Origin: Paecilomyces variotii
Taxonomy: Eukaryota
DNA: 64,000 bases
Reading direction: 5' to 3' (one strand)
Assembly: GCA_004022145.1 (NCBI GenBank)
Contig: RCNU01000022.1
Position numbers and translations under genes: made by a program. Every line of letters begins with the position of its first letter. Position 1 is the first letter of the stretch. Positions 29,629 to 39,276 of this stretch are shown one piece after another. Under the pieces are notes generated by a model. That model was not told the origin of the DNA, did not search any database, and was given only the letters and a program-made list of their open reading frames with translations.

Positions 29629-31941
29629 TCAGTAGCGACGCTCTCGGACTTTTCCTCGGTTTCGGGATAGGTCATATTCGATCCATCGGGCGAGGCCCTT
29701 GCTACCTTCGGGGACTAATGGACCGGGGTTCATAACATGACAGCCCTCGTAAGTGATGGAGAAGGGCGGCGCCTCGGCGTCTGCGAGTATACATGCTGTG
29801 GGCAAAGGGTATAGATGCAATGATGATCCGTAATCCCACAAGACAGGTCGCGAGGTTAGTGGGAATGGAGATATGTTTCCTTGATCTAGGACGGTCTTGA
29901 CGAGTTTTCGGGCAGCCAGCGTCGCAGCAGATGGGACATCGTCTCTTTTTCGTGAATTCTCATTCGGGTCGTCGTTGGTCTCAGAGATTTCTGGCTGTCT
30001 CTCACCAGAGTCATCTGTCATCTCGATATCAGGCTGCTGGGAGGTTCCGGAAATCACAGAACTTCGTCTCAACCGTCCGGTGATGTCGTCTCGGAATACA
30101 ACAATCTCGTGCACCGGACCGAAGATGGACAGTCGTGCTGGATTAGTTGTCCAAACTGCTTCACCGCGAGGCTCTTTCGAATGGGATGCATCTGCATCGT
30201 TATTCGCCGTCGCGAATGCACGCTTTATTCTGGTAGTAAACATGTCAGGAATCCCATCTCGCGGGATAGTGGTGGCGGCGCCAGTAGAAAATGCAGACGC
30301 CCAGGGGTCATTATCGCCCGGGACGAAGACGAACGTCGAATGGCGCAGCAGAGACGGAAATTCTGACAAGACCGTAGCAAGCGAATCGAAATATTCCTTG
30401 TATTCGATACTGCCGCCTCGTCCGCCCCCATTGATCACTGCGTGTTTGACAAAATTCCCAATCATGAAGAACACAAGCGGAAGCTCTTCGGTTGGTAAGG
30501 TGTTATAGATATTGAGGGCTTCCCTCAATGCTTCCAATGTTTTTACATTATCGAGGTTCAGCTCACTCATAACAACCATCATTCGTCGAGTGGAATGTTG
30601 TCCATCTTCATTTTCGCGTCGTAGACATTGTCTTTCGATTCTTCTCATGCGCTGCCCCTGTGCACGCTCACTGCCAACTCCGAGAAAGTCGACCCAGCCG
30701 AATCCTCCAGCAGTCACGTCTTTCTGAGCTTTGCGAAGATTCATCCCCAACGTAAGTTCCCTTCGTTCGCATGGCGGAGCACCAATTGAGATGCCGACAA
30801 ATTTGCCTCCTATCGCGCCGCCAACTCCCGTATTACCCCCCAGGGTTGAGCCCCGGACACTTTCTTCTTCCTCGTAGATACCATCTACCAGGACGATCAT
30901 CCCCGGTGCAAACCACGCACTATCCTCCGGCACAGTGCGTGCATGAGTCAAGTCCAACGCAATGCTTCCTGTCAAGTCGGTGATAGATAGGTCTCCCGAA
31001 GGAGAGATAGAAAGAAGACCCAGCACCAGATGAGAGGTTCCGCTCCTTCCCAGAAGATTCGCAATAAGTGTTAACTTGTAAGATTGCTGGCCAACCGTCC
31101 TCGATGACGACCCTCGCGGCCATGGATCGTCTGAAGCTCCCCGCAGGGATGACTGGAAGGATTCGTTGCGAAGTAATCGTTGGTAAATAAGATTGTATCG
31201 ATCGCGAAACAAGGATGTCTTTCGTGACGGCGGCGGGAATAGCGAAGGCTTCCATGTGGGCGTCTCAAAATGCTTCTTGCTAACGTTATATGTGAAGCGA
31301 GGTTGGTCAAAGGCCCCAATGACTTTAATCCACCGTCTCGTATCGCCCATCTCGTTTTCATCATCAATACTTTCATCAGCTGCGCCTGAGGATGTACGAA
31401 TCCCTCCTTGTATAGCGCCGCCGCTCGTAGTATCAGTAGAACCGCGTCGGATTGAAGGGTGCCTGTCTTGCGCAGTAGCCTTAGTGTGTACAATCCTCCC
31501 AGCACTCATACTGCTTTCGAGCGTCTGCAATATGGTCTTAAGGGATGCACCATTGCCCTCTTCGACAATCACGCTGCCGCCAGCTCTCTTCCATTGTTTC
31601 GCAACTTCGTCCAAGACCCGTTCCGCCAGTCCTTCTTCGCGCCATCCTGACCCACAGTTCTTGCCGATAAAAGTAGCCAGAGCCTGCAGAGCGGAGGACG
31701 ATATCGTTAAATTATGTTTCCTGGTAATGGCTCGAAATGCCACCGGTCTTAGAGTGGCAGGAGGAAGTAGAATTGGTAGCACTGAGGCCTTAGAAGCAAT
31801 GTTGTTCGGCTTCCCTTTGCGGATCGGATGAACTGGAGTCCCAAATGCAGGTGATGATGAAGGAATTGGGTCGGAAGGTATGAATCTCGATTTAGCCACT
31901 GACATTTTGGGCGTTTCAGCTGATTCTGAGTGTTCGTTCAT
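29629..31941 (-). CDS. DPB2: DNA polymerase epsilon subunit B
   Basis: 'LPILLPPATLRPVAFR', 'FRDRYNLIYQRLLRN', 'FVFVPGDNDPW', 'TTNPARL', 'LYPLPT', 'MNPG'. First in-frame ATG at 31941. Confidence 0.93.
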   Translation of the reverse strand: MNEHSESAETPKMSVAKSRFIPSDPIPSSSPAFGTPVHPIRKGKPNNIASKASVLPILLPPATLRPVAFRAITRKHNLTISSSALQALATFIGKNCGSGWREEGLAERVLDEVAKQWKRAGGSVIVEEGNGASLKTILQTLESSMSAGRIVHTKATAQDRHPSIRRGSTDTTSGGAIQGGIRTSSGAADESIDDENEMGDTRRWIKVIGAFDQPRFTYNVSKKHFETPTWKPSLFPPPSRKTSLFRDRYNLIYQRLLRNESFQSSLRGASDDPWPRGSSSRTVGQQSYKLTLIANLLGRSGTSHLVLGLLSISPSGDLSITDLTGSIALDLTHARTVPEDSAWFAPGMIVLVDGIYEEEESVRGSTLGGNTGVGGAIGGKFVGISIGAPPCERRELTLGMNLRKAQKDVTAGGFGWVDFLGVGSERAQGQRMRRIERQCLRRENEDGQHSTRRMMVVMSELNLDNVKTLEALREALNIYNTLPTEELPLVFFMIGNFVKHAVINGGGRGGSIEYKEYFDSLATVLSEFPSLLRHSTFVFVPGDNDPWASAFSTGAATTIPRDGIPDMFTTRIKRAFATANNDADASHSKEPRGEAVWTTNPARLSIFGPVHEIVVFRDDITGRLRRSSVISGTSQQPDIEMTDDSGERQPEISETNDDPNENSRKRDDVPSAATLAARKLVKTVLDQGNISPFPLTSRPVLWDYGSSLHLYPLPTACILADAEAPPFSITYEGCHVMNPGPLVPEGSKGLARWIEYDLSRNRGKVRERRY

Positions 31942-32128
31942 TTCTTCGAGATTGATCAGGCGGGGAAGTGTAGATGTTTCTCTGTGTACTTGGCGGGGAC
32001 AGTAGGAAGATCCATGTGGATATAGAGACAATCCTGTAACTAGAAGATGAAATAGACAGTAGCCACGATGATGTTCTGTTCCATCCAAGTATGCGGACAA
32101 TAATGTCGACTATGGCATTAGAGCCCAA

Positions 32129-32173: not shown

Positions 32174-32360
32174 CGCGACTTAAGCATTTCCATTAAAGAT
32201 AAATGGTTATCTTAGCGCAACATCCACTTCCTCCTCAACGCCACTACCTTCTGCACTCTCCTGCATCTCAATCGCAGAGATCCTCCGCGCTACTTGGCCT
32301 TGAGCTAAGCGCGATCTTCATACTTCTGACATCTTCATACCTCTGACCTACCTGCCCACC

Positions 32361-33768
32361 ATGGCCGAAACCAATGACGTCGAGCATGTTGCGGAGGAGA
32401 CAAAGCAAGAGGAGACGCCCGAACAGCTACGAGCGCAGCTGGCAAATCTCACGGAACGCGCCAATGCGCGCGAAGCCTTGAAAGACTATAATACAGCAGC
32501 TGAACTGTATTCGCAAGCTATGGAGATACAGGCGCAACTGAATGGAGAGATGTCACCTGAGAACGCTGACCTGCTCTACGCTTATGGAAAGTCGTTGTAC
32601 AATGTCGCCGTGAGCAAAAGCGACGTCCTCGGAACTAAGGTCGCCGGCAAAGCAGCAGATTCCGAACCTGCTCCTGCACAACCGTCGAATAAATCCGGAT
32701 CGAAGAGCACTGGCCAGGGAGCTACACAGAAGGGCGCTACTGGTGAAACAGGTCAAACGAAAACAGAAGAGAACCGGCCCTACTTCCAGTTCACGGGAGA
32801 CGAGAACTTCGATGTCTCAGACTCGGAGGAAGGGGAGGATGCGGAGAACGAGGGCCCCGATGAAGAGGAAGATGATTTCGCAAACGCTTTCGAGGTGCTC
32901 GACCTGGCCCGTGTCCTCGTATTGCGAAAGCTTGAAGATGTGGAAAATAAGGACAGCAGTAGTGGCAAAGCGGCCGATATGCCTCCTGAGGTGAAGACCC
33001 TTAAGGAACGACTCAGCGACATACATGATTTGCAAGCGGAGATCTCCCTCGAGGCGGAAAGATTCGCGGACGCTGTTTCTGATCTTCGAGCTGCCCTTGA
33101 GCTGAAGGAGTCACTCTTCCCATTTGAAGACCCTACCGTCGCCGAATGTCATTACAAACTTTCCCTTGCTTTGGAGTTTGATTCCGTCCACAAAGCCGAA
33201 GACGGAACCGTAAGTGAAGATCAGTCCGGCGCCGACACCGAGAAGAGAGAAGAGGCTATCAAGCATATGGAAAAGGCCATTGAAAGCTGCAAAGTGCGAA
33301 TGGCAAAGGAACAAAGCAAACTCGACAATGGAGAGGTGACAGATGAGGATAAGGTGGCTGCAGCAAAGCGCAAAATAGGCAACGTGAAGGAGATTGTGGC
33401 GGATATGGAACAACGCGTAAGTTCAGCTAGAAAACTGGTCTCTCAATTCTTGAATAGCTGTGATTTGATTGCTAAGATATGGGCAGCTACTTGATCTCCG
33501 GCGTGGGCCAGTTTCTGCTGCACAGAACGACGATCTAAATCCCTTGAATGGGCTTCTTGGGCAGATCCTTGGACAGGCGCCTGAGCAGCAGAAGGCCAAG
33601 CTTGAGGAGGCTGTGAAGAACGCCAACGATCTCTCGTCGTTTGTGAAAAAGAAGAAGCAACCCGCTCCTGCTCCTGCTCCTGCTGCTACTGGTGAGAAGA
33701 GATCCGTCGATGCGGACGGTGAGCAACCTTCGAAGCGAGCGAAGGTTGAGGAGAGCACAGAGGAGTAA
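32361..33768 (+). CDS. NASP/Sim3/Hif1-family histone chaperone (SHNi-TPR), 2 exons
   Basis: TPRs 'ADLLYAYGKSLY', an acidic insert, 'DFANAFEVLDLAR', 'AEISLEAERF', 'AECHYKLSLALE', and a C-terminal basic NLS-like segment. Intron 33417-33486. Confidence 0.88.
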
Positions 33769-34097: not shown

Positions 34098-34880
34098 TTA
34101 GCCAGCGCCATACATCGTAGATCGTCTGTCAAACTTGCGGCTTCTTCTGCGTGTTGCTAAACCAGGGCTCCAGACCCCAGCAAACAAGTCCTCGCACTCA
34201 TCTTCGTCTTGGCTATCAAATTCCACATTATCATGCAGACTCTCATCATCATCATCATCATCGTCTCGGGCCTTTCCCGGACTGTCGACGTCGAGGTCGT
34301 TATTCGCACATCCATCCCACCGCGAAGTTGTAACAATCCGCTGTGTCTCTAAAATGAACTTGCCGACCTTATATCTCTGGCTCTCCTCTTCCGCAGCCAC
34401 GTATTTCCAGCCTAAGATACTGCCGCAGAGAAGACAACTGATATCACTAACCGTATGAGCACCGGTTACCAGCTGTCGCGGAACAGGCTTATGCGTGACC
34501 GTATTGGGGAGAGATGCTGTCGGCGAAGACGATGAAGTCATGGATATAGCCGTCGTGACGGAATCAGCAGAGACGAGATATGCGCGCCCATGCCGGCCCG
34601 TGAAGCCTTTACTGATGATCTGAGACGTGAGGCAGAGATCGGCTGCGCATCGAGCACATTGGATATATGAGATATGGCCATCGAGGTACCTGGTGCTGGT
34701 GCTGGTGCTGGTGCTGTTATGATTATGATTATTCCGGTAGTTGGTATTAGGACCCTCGATTTTGTCCGCTTGGCTGTTCGGCCGTCGTTGTTTATTACCA
34801 AAAGGTGCGGATGGGAGGAGAAAGGTAGGAAATATGGATGATGATGATGATGATGAGTTTCTCTTTTTACCTGGCGGCAT
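34098..34880 (-). CDS. Yippee-family zinc-binding protein
   Basis: 'CARC...ISKGFTGRHGRAYL' and 'TGAHTVSDISCLLCGSILGWKYVAAEEESQRYKVGKFILE'. Confidence 0.9.
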   Translation of the reverse strand: MPPGKKRNSSSSSSSIFPTFLLPSAPFGNKQRRPNSQADKIEGPNTNYRNNHNHNSTSTSTSTRYLDGHISYIQCARCAADLCLTSQIISKGFTGRHGRAYLVSADSVTTAISMTSSSSPTASLPNTVTHKPVPRQLVTGAHTVSDISCLLCGSILGWKYVAAEEESQRYKVGKFILETQRIVTTSRWDGCANNDLDVDSPGKARDDDDDDDESLHDNVEFDSQDEDECEDLFAGVWSPGLATRRRSRKFDRRSTMYGAG

Positions 34881-35449
34881 TGGTAATATATGCTCAGTAG
34901 TTATATTTCTGGACCAGTAAATAATAATAAAAAAGGATTACAGCTCTTGACGAACCGAGAAGAAGTCATCTAGTTGTCGGCTCCCCATCCTCCAGGGATC
35001 TCGCGGGGTCATATGAGAAGTTCCTAGTTACCTAGTACACCTTAGTTAAGTATGTATGTACCCAATGCCAAGCCACTCGGCCATCACTGCGATCGTCGCC
35101 TCTCCGGATGTAGACGAGTTACAATAGGATGATACATGCTGGTTGCTAGAGCATTCGTTTAGTCCAGGCAGAGCTCATCCTCGCTGCCCAAGGAGGAAAT
35201 ATCACCGGGTGACTTTCAAGACATGCTCCTAGATCAGTCGGTTACGAGGCCGTCTCATGCGCAACATATTCATCCGTATTGTTACATACACGTCCTGCAA
35301 TGAACAAAGAAAAGAACCTAGAAAAAAAAAAAAGGAATGAAGAACACAAAGTACTGATAGTGTTGATTGAACATATCGAGTGCTATGCTATAATGGCGTC
35401 AATACCAGATGGGATAAGAAGCAGCGGTCTGTATCGGCAGCTGCCAACT

Positions 35450-36389
35450 CTAGACTTCCGCAACCAAGAAAATCCACCTAGAGCTCACAGAGGGTTCTGC
35501 GCTGTCTAGAGCAAGTGTCTGCTCCAAAGTTGTTAGGTTGAACCCGCACCAGCCCAGGTCCCTGACTGTGTCGAACTCAGCTGTAACCACTGAGCGACTA
35601 ACGCATGCAACTATCTGACTGCAATCAAAGCCAGGCATGCTTGCCAGCTCAAAAAGAGCCATTAATCTAGACACGAACAGTTAGCCTCGTTTTGCGTGAA
35701 TTGGACGACACCGATCAGCGTTGATATTGAGAAAGAAAGAACATACCCAGATTTCAATCCGTAGCCCAGCGCGTTGCCTTCGAAGAACACGAAGAGCGTT
35801 CTTGGATTGTTCCGTGTCACAAAGCCCCGATAGATATCATCGGACGCATAATTCCACACTTCGAGCCATCTCTGGATTTGGTTGTGGCTCGCTCTGGACT
35901 GGTTGGACCGAGAGACCCGATCATACGCATCCATCTCTAGTGACGCTCGTCTCGCACGACTCCTCTCACCAAGGAAAATCGCCGACAGCTTGTCACAGAA
36001 GAGCCTCTCACACTCTTCCGAGATAGTATGCGCTGCCTCCCCTCTTTGCTCTGGCCATTTGTTATTTGACCAGGAGCTCTCGGTGCCGGACACGACCGGA
36101 CAGCTAAGGGGAGGGCTTATTGGAGGCATTTTAGACCCCGAGGCGACCTCAGGGATACCACTGTGCTCCTGTCGGTAACAATGACATGATCAGTCTCATC
36201 CCATTGAAAGAAATTGGCTGGGATTCTCGTATCCTTACCGGCCCCGCTCGTAGTGCAGTAATGGAATCCGCGGACGACCGCCGAAGAATTCACGGTGTAG
36301 CAGCTGGCGAGAACACTGGCTTCGGCCATGGTCGCCGCAAAGCGCTGCTGTCGTTGATTAATACTACTACTACTGGGTTCTCGAGCCAT
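35450..36389 (-). CDS. OAZ1: Ornithine decarboxylase antizyme; 2 introns plus a +1 programmed ribosomal frameshift
   Basis: ORF1 36389-36239 plus 36168-36152 (56 codons, ...GFHYCTTSGAGAQWYP) ends in CCC-TGA. The +1 frame continues EVASGSKMPP...EECERLFCDKL...WLEVWNY...YRGFV...LFVFF...LKSG, then intron 35746-35667, then LMALFELA...FDCSQIVACVSRS...RDLGWCGF...SRWIFLVAEV*. Confidence 0.92.
36149..36154 (-). other. +1 ribosomal frameshift site CCC-UGA
   Basis: Spliced mRNA reads GGA GCA CAG TGG TAT CCC TGA G. Skipping one T gives GAG GTC GCC... in frame with ORF 35662-36129. Confidence 0.9.
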
Positions 36390-37183
36390 ATTCGTAGTGA
36401 TAACGATGTAACGGATGAGACAATTGACTTGGACGCGAGTTCGGTTGACGATTTGTGCGGTCGGTTGCAGGGAGGCTGGATGACGGACTTTTCAGAAGAC
36501 AATTACACTGAGGTTCTGATGAACCCGTGAGGATGATTGCGATATCCGAGTGATAGTGGTAAGTTAGTCGGTTTAAGGACTCGAATCTTCGAAGCGGTCG
36601 GTCGATGGGGCTGACAGATTAAGTATTCACCGCCCCGAGCTTGGCGTTTTTGCCTCAGGCCACACACGCCACCGAGCTATTCCGAGGTGATAGATCCGGA
36701 TCGTCAGATAGTATTAATAGTTAATAATAGTTATTGCATTGCAAGTCGACTTCTGCACTAATTCAACGTGAGTTGGGTCTCAGCGAAAGAGCTGACATCG
36801 GTGATATACTAGCTTCTTCATTCTACGGAAATATAATGTCCAAGGACCAATAACACGGTGGAAATATACAGAGAAGTCATGATGGATTGATGATATTTCA
36901 CCTCTTCCTATCGCTCGTAATAACAGATCCTGCACCATGCAGACGACTCAACCATATTCCGTCTGAAAAAAACAAAAGAAACAATGAAGCCCGTCAAGAT
37001 AGAGCTCTATGCAGAAATCACCCATGACATCTACAGACACAAATGTGCAAATCACACAGCGATCATGTACATGTACGTCCCGACGCTCGAAATCAAAAGA
37101 ATCATGCAGCCGAGACCGATCGAAGGATAATAAAAGGTCGCAACCAAACCAACTCCGATATGCGCTCCAAGAACGGCATCACT

Positions 37184-39276
37184 TCACAGCTCTCGATAAT
37201 CGCTTGGTCGCACTCTTCGCTGCCTTGCCTGGTGCCGGTGAGGGTTGACGGGTTGGCGGAAATACGCGTTATCCTCCTCGCGAGAGAAGGGAGCACCAAA
37301 TGCAGTTCGCTGCTGATTAGTGAAGGCGTCCATCCCCATTCCTTGTGGGAAAGTTGACTGAGGCGGCATCTGGTTTCCCATCTGTCCCATGGCTTCCATA
37401 CCCATTGGGCCGCCGCCCATTCCGTTGTACATGTTCGGCCCAAAAGGGTGATTTGGCATAGGAGCATTCATGTTGCCGTTATACATCCGGTTTTGTTGAG
37501 ACATAAAGTTCATGCCGTTCATCTGATTCCATCCCGCATCCATGTTACCCATATAGCCGCTTCCACCTGGGAACATCATCGGGTTCATGAAGCCCATAGC
37601 TGCTGGCATAAAACCATTCTCAGGGGCGAAGGGCATTGCCGCCATGCCCTGGGGTGGCATAAACCCAGCACCACCGAAAGAGGCCTGCTCAAATGGCAAC
37701 TGAGGGAAGGCATTCATGGGATTATTTGACTGGGACTCTGTTTTGTCAACCAGTGCCTTGGGATCTTCCGATTTCTGTTTCTTCATGGGTACCGAGTCCG
37801 TGCGCGGTGAACCATCCTGCTTGCCAGGTTCATCCTCAGCAGGTCTCTTCTTTGCCTGGGCTGATGTAGGACCATTTGACAAACTTGGGGACGACGTTTG
37901 TTTCGCCTGAGGAGACTTAGAGGGTTCTTTCTCTGACTGTTCATGCGGTTGCGCGTCGCGCGCAGATTGTTGCTTTTCTTTTTCTTTCTCTTTTTTCTCT
38001 GCCTTTTCGGCTTCGTACGATTTGATCTTTGCGACGGCATCCTCGTCAACAGAAAGATTATCAAGCAGCACGCCCTCTGAAGAACATCCAGGACACACAA
38101 AGTCACTCTCAATCAAAGCATTTGTGATACAGTCATTGCAATACGTCTTCCCGCAACACGGGGTTTTTGTTGGTTCTAAGAACATCCGCTTATCAATCGG
38201 GCATTCCAGACCCCTAGCCTGCAGTTCTCTGCTGCCCTCCGCAGCGGCTGCTTCGGCGGCTGCAGCTGCCGAAGCCTTCGCCTTTTCCTGATACAATTCC
38301 CAGGCAGCTTTGTCAGGCTGAGCAATCACAAAGTCTCCGTCAGCGTTCACCATGACCCCGGAGCTCTTTATCTCCTCATTAGAACCATCCAGAGCGAGAG
38401 AATCCGGCTTCTCAACTTTCGTCTGGAGGGAACGAGGGATACCAGTAGATCGTTTGACCCTATACCTCCCATCAAACTTAGGATCATTATTTGTAGGGCA
38501 AGCTTGGATCCAATGTCCTTGAAACAGCGTGTTAGTCATAGCAGTAGATAAGTGTCCCATGGAGGAACCTACCTTTTTCTCTACATCGGTAACAGAGATA
38601 TCCTGGAGGCGGAGGATGGTCGGGAACATTCACTGGCTTCCCTCTACCGCGCCCAAAGGCGACAGGTGTGGCACTAGGATTCGACATATGTCAGCACGGC
38701 TATCCAAGGATATCGGTATCTATCTATTGCAACTTACTTGGCCATTTCTTGTTGTTGCTCTTTCCATTGATTTGCTTGAAGGTTGAAAAGTGCCTTGATC
38801 TTCTCCTCCTCTGTCTGGGCGTTATCAAGCTCCGACACACCATTGCTGGTTATGTTACCAGTCCCGCTGGCAGTACGGCTCGAGGACGAGATATCAGTAC
38901 GAGCAGAACTGCGCGCATTGACTGGCATTTTCCCGGAAACATAACGTGCTGCACCGCCTTTTCCAGGCCTCGCTGCGGGCAACCTGCGAGCTATGACAGA
39001 CGTAGAACGTGGTATGATTGTTGTGTCATCATCGTATTCTGTTCACGGCTTGGTCAGCATCGTTGTCGGGAAAAGAGGGTAGCAGGGCTTCTGTAAAAAC
39101 CTACCTTCTCCCGTATCCTCATTATAAATGGATAATTCGAAATCTGTTCCATCACCTAGTCTATTCTGACTGATGATTTCCCGTTTTAATTCGAACACGG
39201 AGATACCGGTGCCATCAAAGGTTACCCTCGAGGGCTCTCTCTGGGACTTGAACTTGAAGTGGACGGAAGATGACAT
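37184..39276 (-). CDS. MPE1: Cleavage/polyadenylation factor Mpe1/RBBP6 (DWNN, zinc knuckle, RING-like), 4 exons
   Basis: 'MSSSVHFKFKSQ...FDGTGISVFELKREII', 'CYRCREKGHWIQACPTN', 'RSTGIPRS', 'CPIDKRMFLEP..TPCC...YC..CI...CP.C'. Confidence 0.92.

What the first reader, a model, noticed from the sequence alone, without database searches (positions are those of the whole stretch)
35450..36389. Hidden antizyme gene needing splicing plus a +1 ribosomal frameshift (CCC-UGA)
Seen: the ORF track splits this locus into three pieces. Removing intron 36238-36169 (GTAAGG...CTGAT...CAG) gives a 56-codon ORF1 ending ...TGG TAT CCC TGA only 17 nt past the splice junction. The +1 frame (GAG GTC GCC...) runs into the antizyme-like domain, completed after intron 35746-35667. 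Known: ODC antizymes are decoded by polyamine-stimulated +1 frameshifting at the ORF1 stop. Inference: this is the polyamine-sensing recoding system of this fungus, and gene predictors would probably mis-start it at ATG 36129. The mechanism is established, not new.
Basis: partly seen in the sequence, partly recalled or inferred. Interest (0 to 1): 0.8.

Follow-up and report, generated by a model that had tools for sequence, protein, structure and literature searches.

The report
Fungal antizyme gene with +1 frameshift
This is the ordinary polyamine-sensing antizyme gene of the mould Paecilomyces variotii, read through two introns and a +1 ribosomal frameshift at CCC-UGA, a mechanism already described for its relatives, although public gene models of this species hide the frameshift behind a false intron.

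Summary
On the minus strand, ATG 36389 opens a 56-codon ORF1. Intron 36238-36169 is removed and ORF1 then ends TGG TAT CCC TGA (stop 36151-36149). The +1 frame runs on into an ODC_AZ domain (PF02100) that is completed after intron 35746-35667, with its stop at 35452-35450.

Spliced transcript contigs from two studies show both introns removed. They show no indel or extra splice at the shift site. The three coding pieces are colinear with the curated Aspergillus nidulans antizyme, which reads ...QWYPEV... across the same junction.

ORF1, the position of intron 1 and the shift cassette are conserved in dozens of related metagenome loci. The clade-specific 3' stem-loop and the 27-nt conserved element described in 2007 sit at the published distances.

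They splice out the shift site with a false 55-nt intron.

One possibly new point is a conserved local hairpin whose 5' arm is the shift site itself. Evidence for it is suggestive and covariation is weak.

The parts
35322..36538 (-). Minimum extent of the antizyme mRNA
   Evidence: Spliced contigs X5 (35322-36531) and X1 (to 36538; about 196 nt of it run on below 35300).
36390..36538 (-). 5' leader, at least 149 nt, without any ATG
   Evidence: the only ATGs before the shift site in the spliced mRNA are those at 36389 and 36329, both in the ORF1 frame, and 36129 in the ORF2 frame.
36239..36389 (-). Exon 1 coding part: ORF1 codons 1-50 plus the first base of codon 51
   Evidence: It aligns to residues 2-38 of the curated A. 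nidulans antizyme (54% identity, E 8e-12).
36169..36238 (-). Intron 1, 70 nt, GT..AG, phase 1 inside a Gly codon
   Evidence: Joint in contigs X1 and X5. The same acceptor position (AG|GNGC, 17 nt before the stop) is seen in genomic relatives.
35747..36168 (-). Exon 2: the last 5 2/3 codons of ORF1, the shift site, and the N-terminal two thirds of ORF2
   Evidence: covered without any difference by X1 and X5.
36149..36154 (-). Shift site CCC TGA. T 36151 is the base passed over in the +1 shift
   Evidence: The cassette TGG TAT CCC TGA GGTC is conserved in close relatives.
36136..36154 (-). Local hairpin: 5' arm is the shift site plus GG (36154-36147), loop 36146-36144, 3' arm 36143-36136. 8 bp including one G-U
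   Evidence: Fold: -13.6 kcal/mol, z -2.9, 0 of 200 shuffles as good. A similar hairpin of 7 bp or more is found in 21 of 23 CCC/TCC cassettes. Covariation is weak.
36106..36114 (-). 5' arm of the long-range 3' stem-loop, starting 34 nt after the ORF1 stop
   Evidence: It fits the published spacer of 31-41 nt (PMC1874602 section 10).
36036..36044 (-). 3' arm of the long-range stem-loop (9 bp, 61-nt loop)
   Evidence: It ends exactly 16 nt before the conserved element, as published. Compensatory changes are seen in relatives.
35993..36019 (-). 27-nt conserved element encoding EECERLFCD
   Evidence: It is described as conserved in this fungal branch in PMC1874602 section 10.
35667..35746 (-). 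Intron 2, 80 nt, GT..AG, phase 2 inside a Gly codon
   Evidence: Joint in X1 and X5, and weakly in X6. The Pfam profile break falls at position 45.
35450..35666 (-). Exon 3 coding part with stop TAG 35452-35450: C-terminal part of the ODC_AZ domain
   Evidence: 59% identical to residues 178-246 of the A. nidulans antizyme.
36104..36158 (-). False 55-nt 'intron' of the public P. variotii gene models, which deletes the shift site
   Evidence: reproduces P0004 exactly with this intron. No such joint exists in contigs X1 and X5.
36127..36129 (-). ATG in the ORF2 frame, 20 nt after the ORF1 stop. It is not conserved
   Evidence: In alignment A1 only the window row has Met at this column.

Best explanation
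This locus is the ornithine decarboxylase antizyme gene of Paecilomyces variotii (Eurotiales).

How it is read:
- The mRNA has three exons. Ribosomes start at ATG 36389 and translate the conserved 56-codon ORF1.
- They reach CCC in the P site with UGA in the A site. A fraction of them move +1, passing over T 36151, instead of terminating.
- That fraction is expected to rise with polyamine concentration. Shifted ribosomes continue in ORF2 and make a 262-aa antizyme with an ODC_AZ domain.
- By homology, the protein binds ODC monomers and sends them to degradation, which closes a negative feedback loop on polyamine synthesis.

The cassette carries the stimulators described for this fungal branch:
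- a conserved ORF1 C-terminal peptide and nucleotide block;
- a long-range stem-loop starting 34 nt after the stop;
- a 27-nt conserved element 16 nt after that stem.

Shown here: gene structure, splicing, retention of the shift site in the mature transcript, domain identity, and conservation. Inferred from the family: that the shift occurs, its polyamine dependence, and ODC binding.
For: - Pfam ODC_AZ is above the gathering score on both ORF2 pieces, which abut in the profile at the intron.
- Both introns are removed in contigs X1 and X5 of two studies. Exon 2 is identical to the window, so the stop and the frame offset are in the mRNA.
- ORF1 is 56 codons, the product is 262 aa with no internal stop, and there is no ATG in the leader.
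- The pieces are colinear with the curated A. nidulans antizyme P0085, which reads through the same junction. P. brasiliensis P0093 does the same.
- Shift cassette in relatives: 52 loci have a contiguous cassette, giving 38 distinct cassettes with the window's own row included. P-site codons are CCC 17, GTT 14, TCC 6, GGG 1.
- The ORF1 peptide is conserved, with most variation at third codon positions (entropy 1.01 against 0.71 and 0.73). First-Met-to-stop length is 56 codons in L005, L009, L011 and the window.
- The long-range stem and the conserved element sit at the published distances, and relatives show compensatory changes.
- The literature lists CCC-UGA for the Aspergillus clade (PMC1874602 passages).
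Against: - There is no direct evidence of frameshifting in this organism. No ribosome profiling, peptide data or reporter assay was available.
- X1 and X5 are called RNA only by guess. One contig of a recorded RNA library keeps intron 1, and X7 is unspliced.
- The UCCCU motif 3 nt after the stop, noted for many antizymes, is imperfect here (UCGCC).
- No whole genome is held, so the presence of the ODC target gene and of a single antizyme copy was not checked.
- No solved structure matches exon 3 by sequence.
Confidence: 0.93

Rival explanations
1. ORF2 is made without frameshifting. ORF1 acts as an upstream ORF, and ribosomes reinitiate or scan leakily to ATG 36129 in the ORF2 frame.
For: An ATG lies in the ORF2 frame 20 nt after the ORF1 stop. 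It is the third ATG of the mRNA.
Against: - Met at that column is found only in the window row of alignment A1.
- The stretch between the shift site and that ATG (EVASGSK) is conserved in the ORF2 frame across Penicillium, Aspergillus, Monascus and Talaromyces.
- Curated antizymes read through the junction.
- Both upstream ATGs have A at -3 and G at +4.
Confidence: 0.04
2. The public gene model is right: a 55-nt intron (36158-36104) fuses ORF1 and ORF2 in frame, so no recoding is needed.
For: The segment has GT..AG ends, and removing it restores the frame. It reproduces the deposited 224-aa protein. All six named P. variotii and P. lecythidis cluster mates are models of this cluster.
Against: - Contigs X1 and X5 cover 35747-36167 without any joint there.
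- The supposed intron holds the most conserved nucleotides of the locus and the conserved ORF2 residues EVxSGSK..SPP.
- PMC1874602 (section 7 passages) describes exactly this kind of annotation artefact in fungal genomes.
Confidence: 0.02
3. The frame break is an assembly error or a pseudogene lesion.
For: None beyond the bare fact of a frame break.
Against: - The sequence is the same in contigs from independent runs. Three runs hold all sampled words, and X1 and X5 show no difference.
- The same +1 arrangement recurs in dozens of related loci.
Confidence: 0.01

Closest known systems
Aspergillus (Emericella) nidulans ornithine decarboxylase antizyme, curated 246-aa frameshift product
   Same: The ORF1 end and junction (...QWYP|EV.SGSK), the CCC-type shift codon clade, the ODC_AZ domain and the EECERLFCD block are the same. 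Identity is 54-59% over the three window pieces, which are colinear with one residue missing at each intron.
   Different: The window's ORF1 is longer at the N terminus: 56 codons, while the curated record starts at the position of window residue 15. Ala replaces Pro two residues after the junction, so the UCCCU-like motif is imperfect.
Pezizomycotina antizyme frameshift cassette of Ivanov and Atkins 2007 (PMC1874602: CCC-UGA clade, Figure 4A stem-loop, module F)
   Same: CCC-UGA shift site. The stem-loop starts 34 nt after the stop (published range 31-41) with a 61-nt loop (published 18-130). The conserved 27-nt element starts exactly 16 nt after the stem. There is extensive 5' conservation.
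   Different: P. variotii is not named in the passages I read. The local hairpin over the shift site is not mentioned in the main text I searched. The supplements could not be seen.
Mammalian antizyme 1 (UCC-UGA with 3' pseudoknot)
   Same: Two overlapping ORFs, a +1 shift at the ORF1 stop, an ODC_AZ domain, and a Trp two codons before the shift codon.
   Different: The P-site codon is CCC, not UCC. There is no Rfam hit to any RNA family in 35300-36600, so no vertebrate-type pseudoknot. The stimulators are of the fungal type.
Agaricomycete antizymes with a nascent-peptide stimulator (PMC4505036; peptide quoted in PMC1874602 section 13)
   Same: The ORF1 C-terminal peptide is conserved at the amino-acid level. 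It has a similar Y-x-T-T..G.G..W pattern.
   Different: The shift codon there is UUU. The role of the peptide has been tested only in Agaricomycete cassettes, not in this clade.

Membership tests
ODC antizyme (Pfam ODC_AZ, PF02100) | Domain match above the curated gathering score | tested here: met
   39.1 and 67.3 bits against a cut-off of 24.2, covering profile positions 1-44 and 46-114 of 114.
ODC antizyme, recoded gene | A short ORF1 followed by a longer ORF2 in the +1 frame that holds the domain and lacks a conserved start of its own | tested here: met
   The only ORF2-frame ATG near the site (36129) is not conserved.
ODC antizyme, recoded gene | The shift site is the last sense codon of ORF1 plus a UGA stop, of a type recorded for the clade | tested here: met
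   CCC TGA at 36154-36149. CCC-UGA is recorded for the Aspergillus/Thermomyces/Paracoccidioides clade (PMC1874602 passages).
ODC antizyme, recoded gene | ORF1, stop and frame offset are conserved in related genomes | tested here: met
   52 loci with a contiguous cassette. ORF1 is 53-63 codons in most intron-less contigs.
ODC antizyme, recoded gene | The shift site is present in the mature mRNA, not spliced out or edited | tested here: met
   contigs X1 and X5 are spliced at both true introns and identical to the window across exon 2. Caveat: these are contigs, and the RNA label is a guess.
Pezizomycotina antizyme cassette (PMC1874602, Figure 4A group) | A stem-loop starting 31-41 nt after the stop, and a conserved element exactly 16 nt after the stem | tested here: met
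   text; spacer 34, 9 bp, loop 61, with compensatory changes in relatives; present in both the MFE and centroid folds.
ODC antizyme | Frameshifting stimulated by polyamines | not testable with these tools
   Needs reporter assays or ribosome profiling with and without spermidine.
ODC antizyme | Binds ODC and promotes its degradation | not testable with these tools
   No whole genome is held, so the ODC gene was not located and no complex was predicted.
Vertebrate-type antizyme frameshift pseudoknot (Rfam) | Match to an Rfam covariance model | tested here: not met
   0 matches at E up to 1 in 35300-36600. This is expected for fungi and is not a defining feature of the protein family.

The most novel reading that the evidence does not exclude
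In Pezizomycotina antizyme mRNAs with a CCC-UGA or UCC-UGA shift site, the shift codon, the stop and the next two G's form the 5' arm of a conserved local hairpin. In the window this is 36154-36136.

What the hairpin looks like across relatives:
- The 3' arm is kept complementary although loop length varies from 3 to about 12 nt and the intervening codons differ.
- The Ser codon in the 3' arm is always UCA or UCG.
- The hairpin is absent from the GUU-UGA clade.

A helix that the ribosome must melt just before it reaches the shift site, and that polyamines would stabilise, could be an unrecognised part of the polyamine sensor or of the pausing signal. I did not find it in the main text of the 2007 survey or in the other papers searched. 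The supplements were closed.
Probability: 0.3. Interest if true: 0.55.

Novelty: new member of a known kind. Interest (0 to 1): 0.25.

Why it matters
As biology this is ordinary. It is one more orthologue of a well-studied recoded gene, with a shift site already recorded for its order.

Its practical value is for annotation. All six named records of this protein cluster in Paecilomyces are 'hypothetical protein' models, and one P. lecythidis record also carries a UniRef antizyme name. The exact-match 224-aa record deletes the conserved shift cassette with a false intron. Many relatives are modelled in the ORF2 frame or fused to the neighbouring Yippee gene. Correct models would need a ribosomal-slippage annotation.

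The set of about 50 cassettes gathered here also gives material for testing a possible shift-site hairpin, and shows two P-site codons (GGG, GCC) outside the published table.

Tried and rejected
- I translated exon 2 from 36148 instead of 36150. The frame was wrong and full of stops, so the result is uninformative. supersede it.
- no whole genome is held for the window, so the ODC gene and the antizyme copy number could not be checked.
- Rfam found no match in 35300-36600.
- no solved structure matches exon 3 by sequence at E up to 1.
- the scan holds no earlier notes for this genome.
- the formal pair count on the 6 core pairs of the local hairpin gave 93.8% paired cells but no significant covariation. 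Only 1 pair had changes on both sides (3 cells), 91 of 500 shuffles did as well, and the covariation score was reached by 104 of 500. The hairpin therefore rests on conserved complementarity across variable loops, not on covariation.
- a loose regex over all 80 loci also picked up chance sites (TTT_TAG, CGT_TGA, GTA_TAA, GAC_TAA, CAT_TGA), which I set aside. It missed 17 loci.
- L068 was dropped as a false site.
- I rejected the ATG 36129 start, the 55-nt intron and the pseudogene reading (see rival explanations).
- No complex prediction or structure prediction was run. The family assignment did not need them.

Full report
**Observation.**
- ATG 36389 opens an ORF whose first 50 codons lie in exon 1.
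- A GTAAGG donor at 36238 and a CAG acceptor ending at 36169 bound a 70-nt intron.
- After splicing, ORF1 continues for 17 nt and ends TGG TAT CCC TGA, with the stop at 36151-36149. ORF1 is exactly 56 codons.
- Reading CCCT as one step gives ...AQWYPEVASGSK... and an open frame up to a GTATGT donor at 35746.
- After an 80-nt intron (35746-35667) the frame continues to TAG 35452-35450.
- The complete product is 262 aa with no internal stop.

**Identity.** Pfam places the ORF2 part of exon 2 on ODC_AZ (PF02100) profile positions 1-44 (E 7.8e-10). It places exon 3 on positions 46-114 (E 1.3e-18). Both are above the gathering score, and the break falls exactly at intron 2.
- The nearest database protein, 100% identical over 85% of the query, is a 'hypothetical protein' of Paecilomyces variotii. 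The other hits are Penicillium, Aspergillus, Monascus and Talaromyces proteins carrying PF02100 (70 of 76 candidates at E up to 1e-3).
- A search among longer proteins (22 of 219 candidates) brought up the curated A. nidulans antizyme (P0085, 246 aa) and the P. brasiliensis antizyme (P0093). Both read ...QWYPEVPSG... across the junction.
- The window's three pieces align colinearly to P0085. Exon 1 residues 15-50 align to 2-38, exon 2 to 40-176 and exon 3 to 178-246. One residue is missing at each intron, as expected for split Gly codons.

**Transcripts.** Of 21 listed runs, 20 hold the stretch. I laid four runs from four studies.
- Contigs X1 (1285 nt) and X5 (1060 nt) each skip 35667-35746 and 36168/9-36237/8. 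These are GT..AG on the minus strand. Both contigs match the window without a single difference or gap across exon 2.
- The shift site, the stop and the frame offset are therefore in the mature transcript. There is no joint that would fuse the ORFs.
- Limits: X1 and X5 are labelled RNA only by guess, although a form lacking both introns is hard to explain otherwise. X6, a recorded RNA library of a food sample, supports the 80-nt joint only with a 27-nt side. X6 also holds one contig (35863-36404) that keeps intron 1. X7 is a 20-kb unspliced contig and looks like DNA. Contigs cannot give levels or ends.
- The leader reaches at least 36538 and contains no ATG. The two ATGs before the shift site (36389, 36329) are both in the ORF1 frame and both have A at -3 and G at +4.

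**Conservation.** A scan of metagenome contigs with alignment A1 gave 154 confirmed relatives, of which 80 loci were kept.
- Close relatives carry the same cassette, (C/T)AG|GAGCACAG TGG TAT CCC TGA GGTC. The intron acceptor is at the same place in genomic contigs, and exon 1 is directly joined in short, evidently spliced contigs.
- 52 loci have a contiguous shift site and ORF2 up to the EECER motif. L068 was dropped as a false site. With the window's own row included, these give 38 distinct cassettes. Their P-site codons are CCC 17, GTT 14, TCC 6 and GGG 1.
- A looser pass over all 80 loci gave CCC_TGA 24, GTT_TGA 19, TCC_TGA 17, GGG_TGA 2 and GCC_TGA 1. It also gave a few chance sites, and missed 17 loci.
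- In intron-less contigs, ORF1 runs 53-63 codons from the first Met in most cases. It is 56 codons in L005, L009, L011 and the window.
- The last 30 or so ORF1 residues follow a clear consensus..LASCY.VD......GFHY(S/C)TTGAGGA.W(Y/C/F)(P/S). Variation is higher at third codon positions: entropy 1.01 against 0.71 and 0.73 over 32 distinct sequences. This points to selection on the ORF1 peptide.

**Known stimulators.** Ivanov and Atkins 2007 (PMC1874602) is the reference. I read section 10 parts 2-3, section 13, and passages of sections 7, 9, 12 and 16.
- For this fungal branch they describe a stem-loop starting 31-41 nt after the ORF1 stop, with a loop of 18-130 nt.
- They also describe a conserved element that starts exactly 16 nt after the stem and encodes EECER(L/F)FC(D/E).
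- In the window the 5' arm is 36114-36106 (spacer 34 nt) and the 3' arm is 36044-36036 (9 bp, loop 61 nt). The 27-nt element is 36019-35993, 16 nt after the stem.
- The stem appears in both the MFE and the centroid fold of exon 2.
- Relatives show compensatory changes, for example CCTCCTCTT/AAGAGGAGG in L001 and CCTCTCCC/GGGAGAGG in L007.
- The same paper lists CCC-UGA for the clade with Aspergillus, Thermomyces, Paracoccidioides and Ajellomyces, and separately for Botryotinia/Sclerotinia and Pneumocystis. A later review calls CCC_UGA a small minority among antizyme sites (PMC5009743, passages).
- Rfam has no match in the region, as expected for a cassette without the vertebrate pseudoknot.

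**Mechanism.**
- Shown: the gene structure, the splicing, the presence of the site in the transcript, the domain, and conservation of all the parts.
- Inferred from the family: with CCC in the P site and UGA in the A site, slow termination lets a fraction of ribosomes move +1. On CCC U the prolyl-tRNA could re-pair with CCU. Polyamines raise that fraction. The product binds ODC.
- None of these steps could be tested here.

**Rivals.**
- A start at ATG 36129 is unlikely. That Met is unique to the window row in A1, and the seven residues between the shift site and it are conserved in the ORF2 frame.
- The deposited P. variotii model is reproduced exactly by starting at ATG 36329 and removing an extra 55-nt GT..AG segment, 36158-36104. 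That segment contains the shift site and the best conserved nucleotides. It is not skipped in X1 or X5.
- All six named members of that protein cluster, from P. variotii and P. lecythidis, are 'hypothetical protein' models. One P. lecythidis record also has a UniRef antizyme name.
- This is the artefact that Ivanov and Atkins described for fungal genomes, a frameshift site 'edited out' during annotation.
- Other relatives are modelled in the ORF2 frame upstream of the site (...PEHSGIPEV...), read into intron 1 (P0080), or are fused with the neighbouring Yippee gene.

**A possibly new detail.** The shift site plus the next two G's (36154-36147) is complementary to 36143-36136.
- This gives an 8-bp hairpin with a 3-nt loop: -13.6 kcal/mol, z -2.9, and 0 of 200 shuffles as good.
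- Among 23 distinct CCC/TCC cassettes, 21 have a stem of 7 bp or more anchored at the P-site codon. Loops range from 3 to about 12 nt, in at least seven different arrangements. The 14 GTT cassettes reach at most 5 bp.
- An offset control finds such stems at offset 0 in 17 of 23 and at offset +1 in 16 of 23. At most other offsets the count is 0-4, and offsets -1 and -2 give 9 and 6 as extensions of the same helix.
- MFE z is below -2 in 17 of 23 CCC/TCC cassettes and in 0 of 14 GTT cassettes.
- Against it: the six core pairs are nearly invariant, so the formal covariation test is not significant. Cells are 93.8% paired, only one pair changes on both sides (C-G to U-A in 3 cells), and 91 of 500 shuffles do as well. 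The cassettes are also phylogenetically related.
- The 3' arm also encodes a conserved Ser-Gly of ORF2. However, the Ser codon is UCA or UCG in all 23 cassettes.
- With CCC in the P site the 3' arm lies inside or at the mouth of the mRNA channel. The helix must therefore be melted before the shift, and any role would be in the approach to the site.
- I found no mention of it. The words hairpin, sequester and palindrom are absent from the main text of PMC1874602. Four full-text searches gave nothing relevant. Supplements are closed, and the alignments there may already show it.

**Surroundings.**
- Downstream on the same strand lies a Yippee/Mis18 ORF (34101-34937).
- Further off are an SHNi-TPR protein (32304-33491, + strand) and a DNA polymerase epsilon subunit B (29632-32109, - strand).
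- Upstream is a 481-aa ORF without a Pfam match (37187-38629).

**Verdict.** This is an orthologue of a known recoded gene, with a known shift site and known stimulators. Its interest is low except for annotation and for the untested hairpin.

Noticed in passing
window 36136-36154 (- strand); also L001, L004-L007, L012, L014, L015, L022-L024, L026, L027, L029, L047, L053, L055, L059, L060, L071, L073: A local hairpin whose 5' arm is the shift codon, the stop and GG. It is kept complementary across loops of 3 to about 12 nt in CCC/TCC cassettes and is absent in GTT cassettes. Covariation is not significant.
   Followed up: yes
window 36104-36158 (- strand): Public P. variotii gene models (224 aa, 'hypothetical protein') start at ATG 36329 and remove the frameshift site with a false 55-nt GT..AG intron. 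The transcript contigs do not show this joint.
   Followed up: yes
L025:1724-1765 and L028 (GGG TGA); L080 (GCC TGA): Antizyme cassettes whose P-site codons, GGG and GCC, are not among the seven listed in Table 1 of PMC1874602. Proteins P0006, P0015 and P0060 read ...GMPEV..., which would also fit GCC-UGA, but that was seen only at protein level.
   Followed up: partly
window 34101-34937 (- strand); proteins P0074, P0089, P0090, P0094, P0095: A Yippee/Mis18 gene lies just downstream of the antizyme gene. In several Penicillium, Aspergillus, Talaromyces and Arachnomyces records the two are fused into one model carrying PF02100 and PF03226. This suggests conserved synteny and read-through gene models.
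   Followed up: partly
L071:617-658, L073:333-374: In these relatives the intron acceptor sits directly before the TGG codon, 6 nt before the shift codon, instead of 17 nt before the stop. The intron position has therefore moved within the conserved cassette.
   Followed up: no
window 36130-36169, run X6 record 14: A 151-nt contig from a food metatranscriptome matches only the 40-nt cassette. Beyond 36169 it continues with letters whose reverse complement, read by eye, encodes a GFHYCTT-like ORF1 end. It is probably a spliced antizyme transcript of another mould with the same exon junction.
   Followed up: no
window 35321-35331 and 36451, 36500: Strain differences in X6 and X7: a 14-nt AG-rich insertion and a 1-nt deletion next to the T-run in the 3' UTR, and small insertions in the 5' leader. 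There are none in the shift cassette.
   Followed up: no
window 37187-38629 (- strand): A 481-aa open frame upstream of the antizyme gene has no Pfam match at E up to 0.001.
   Followed up: no
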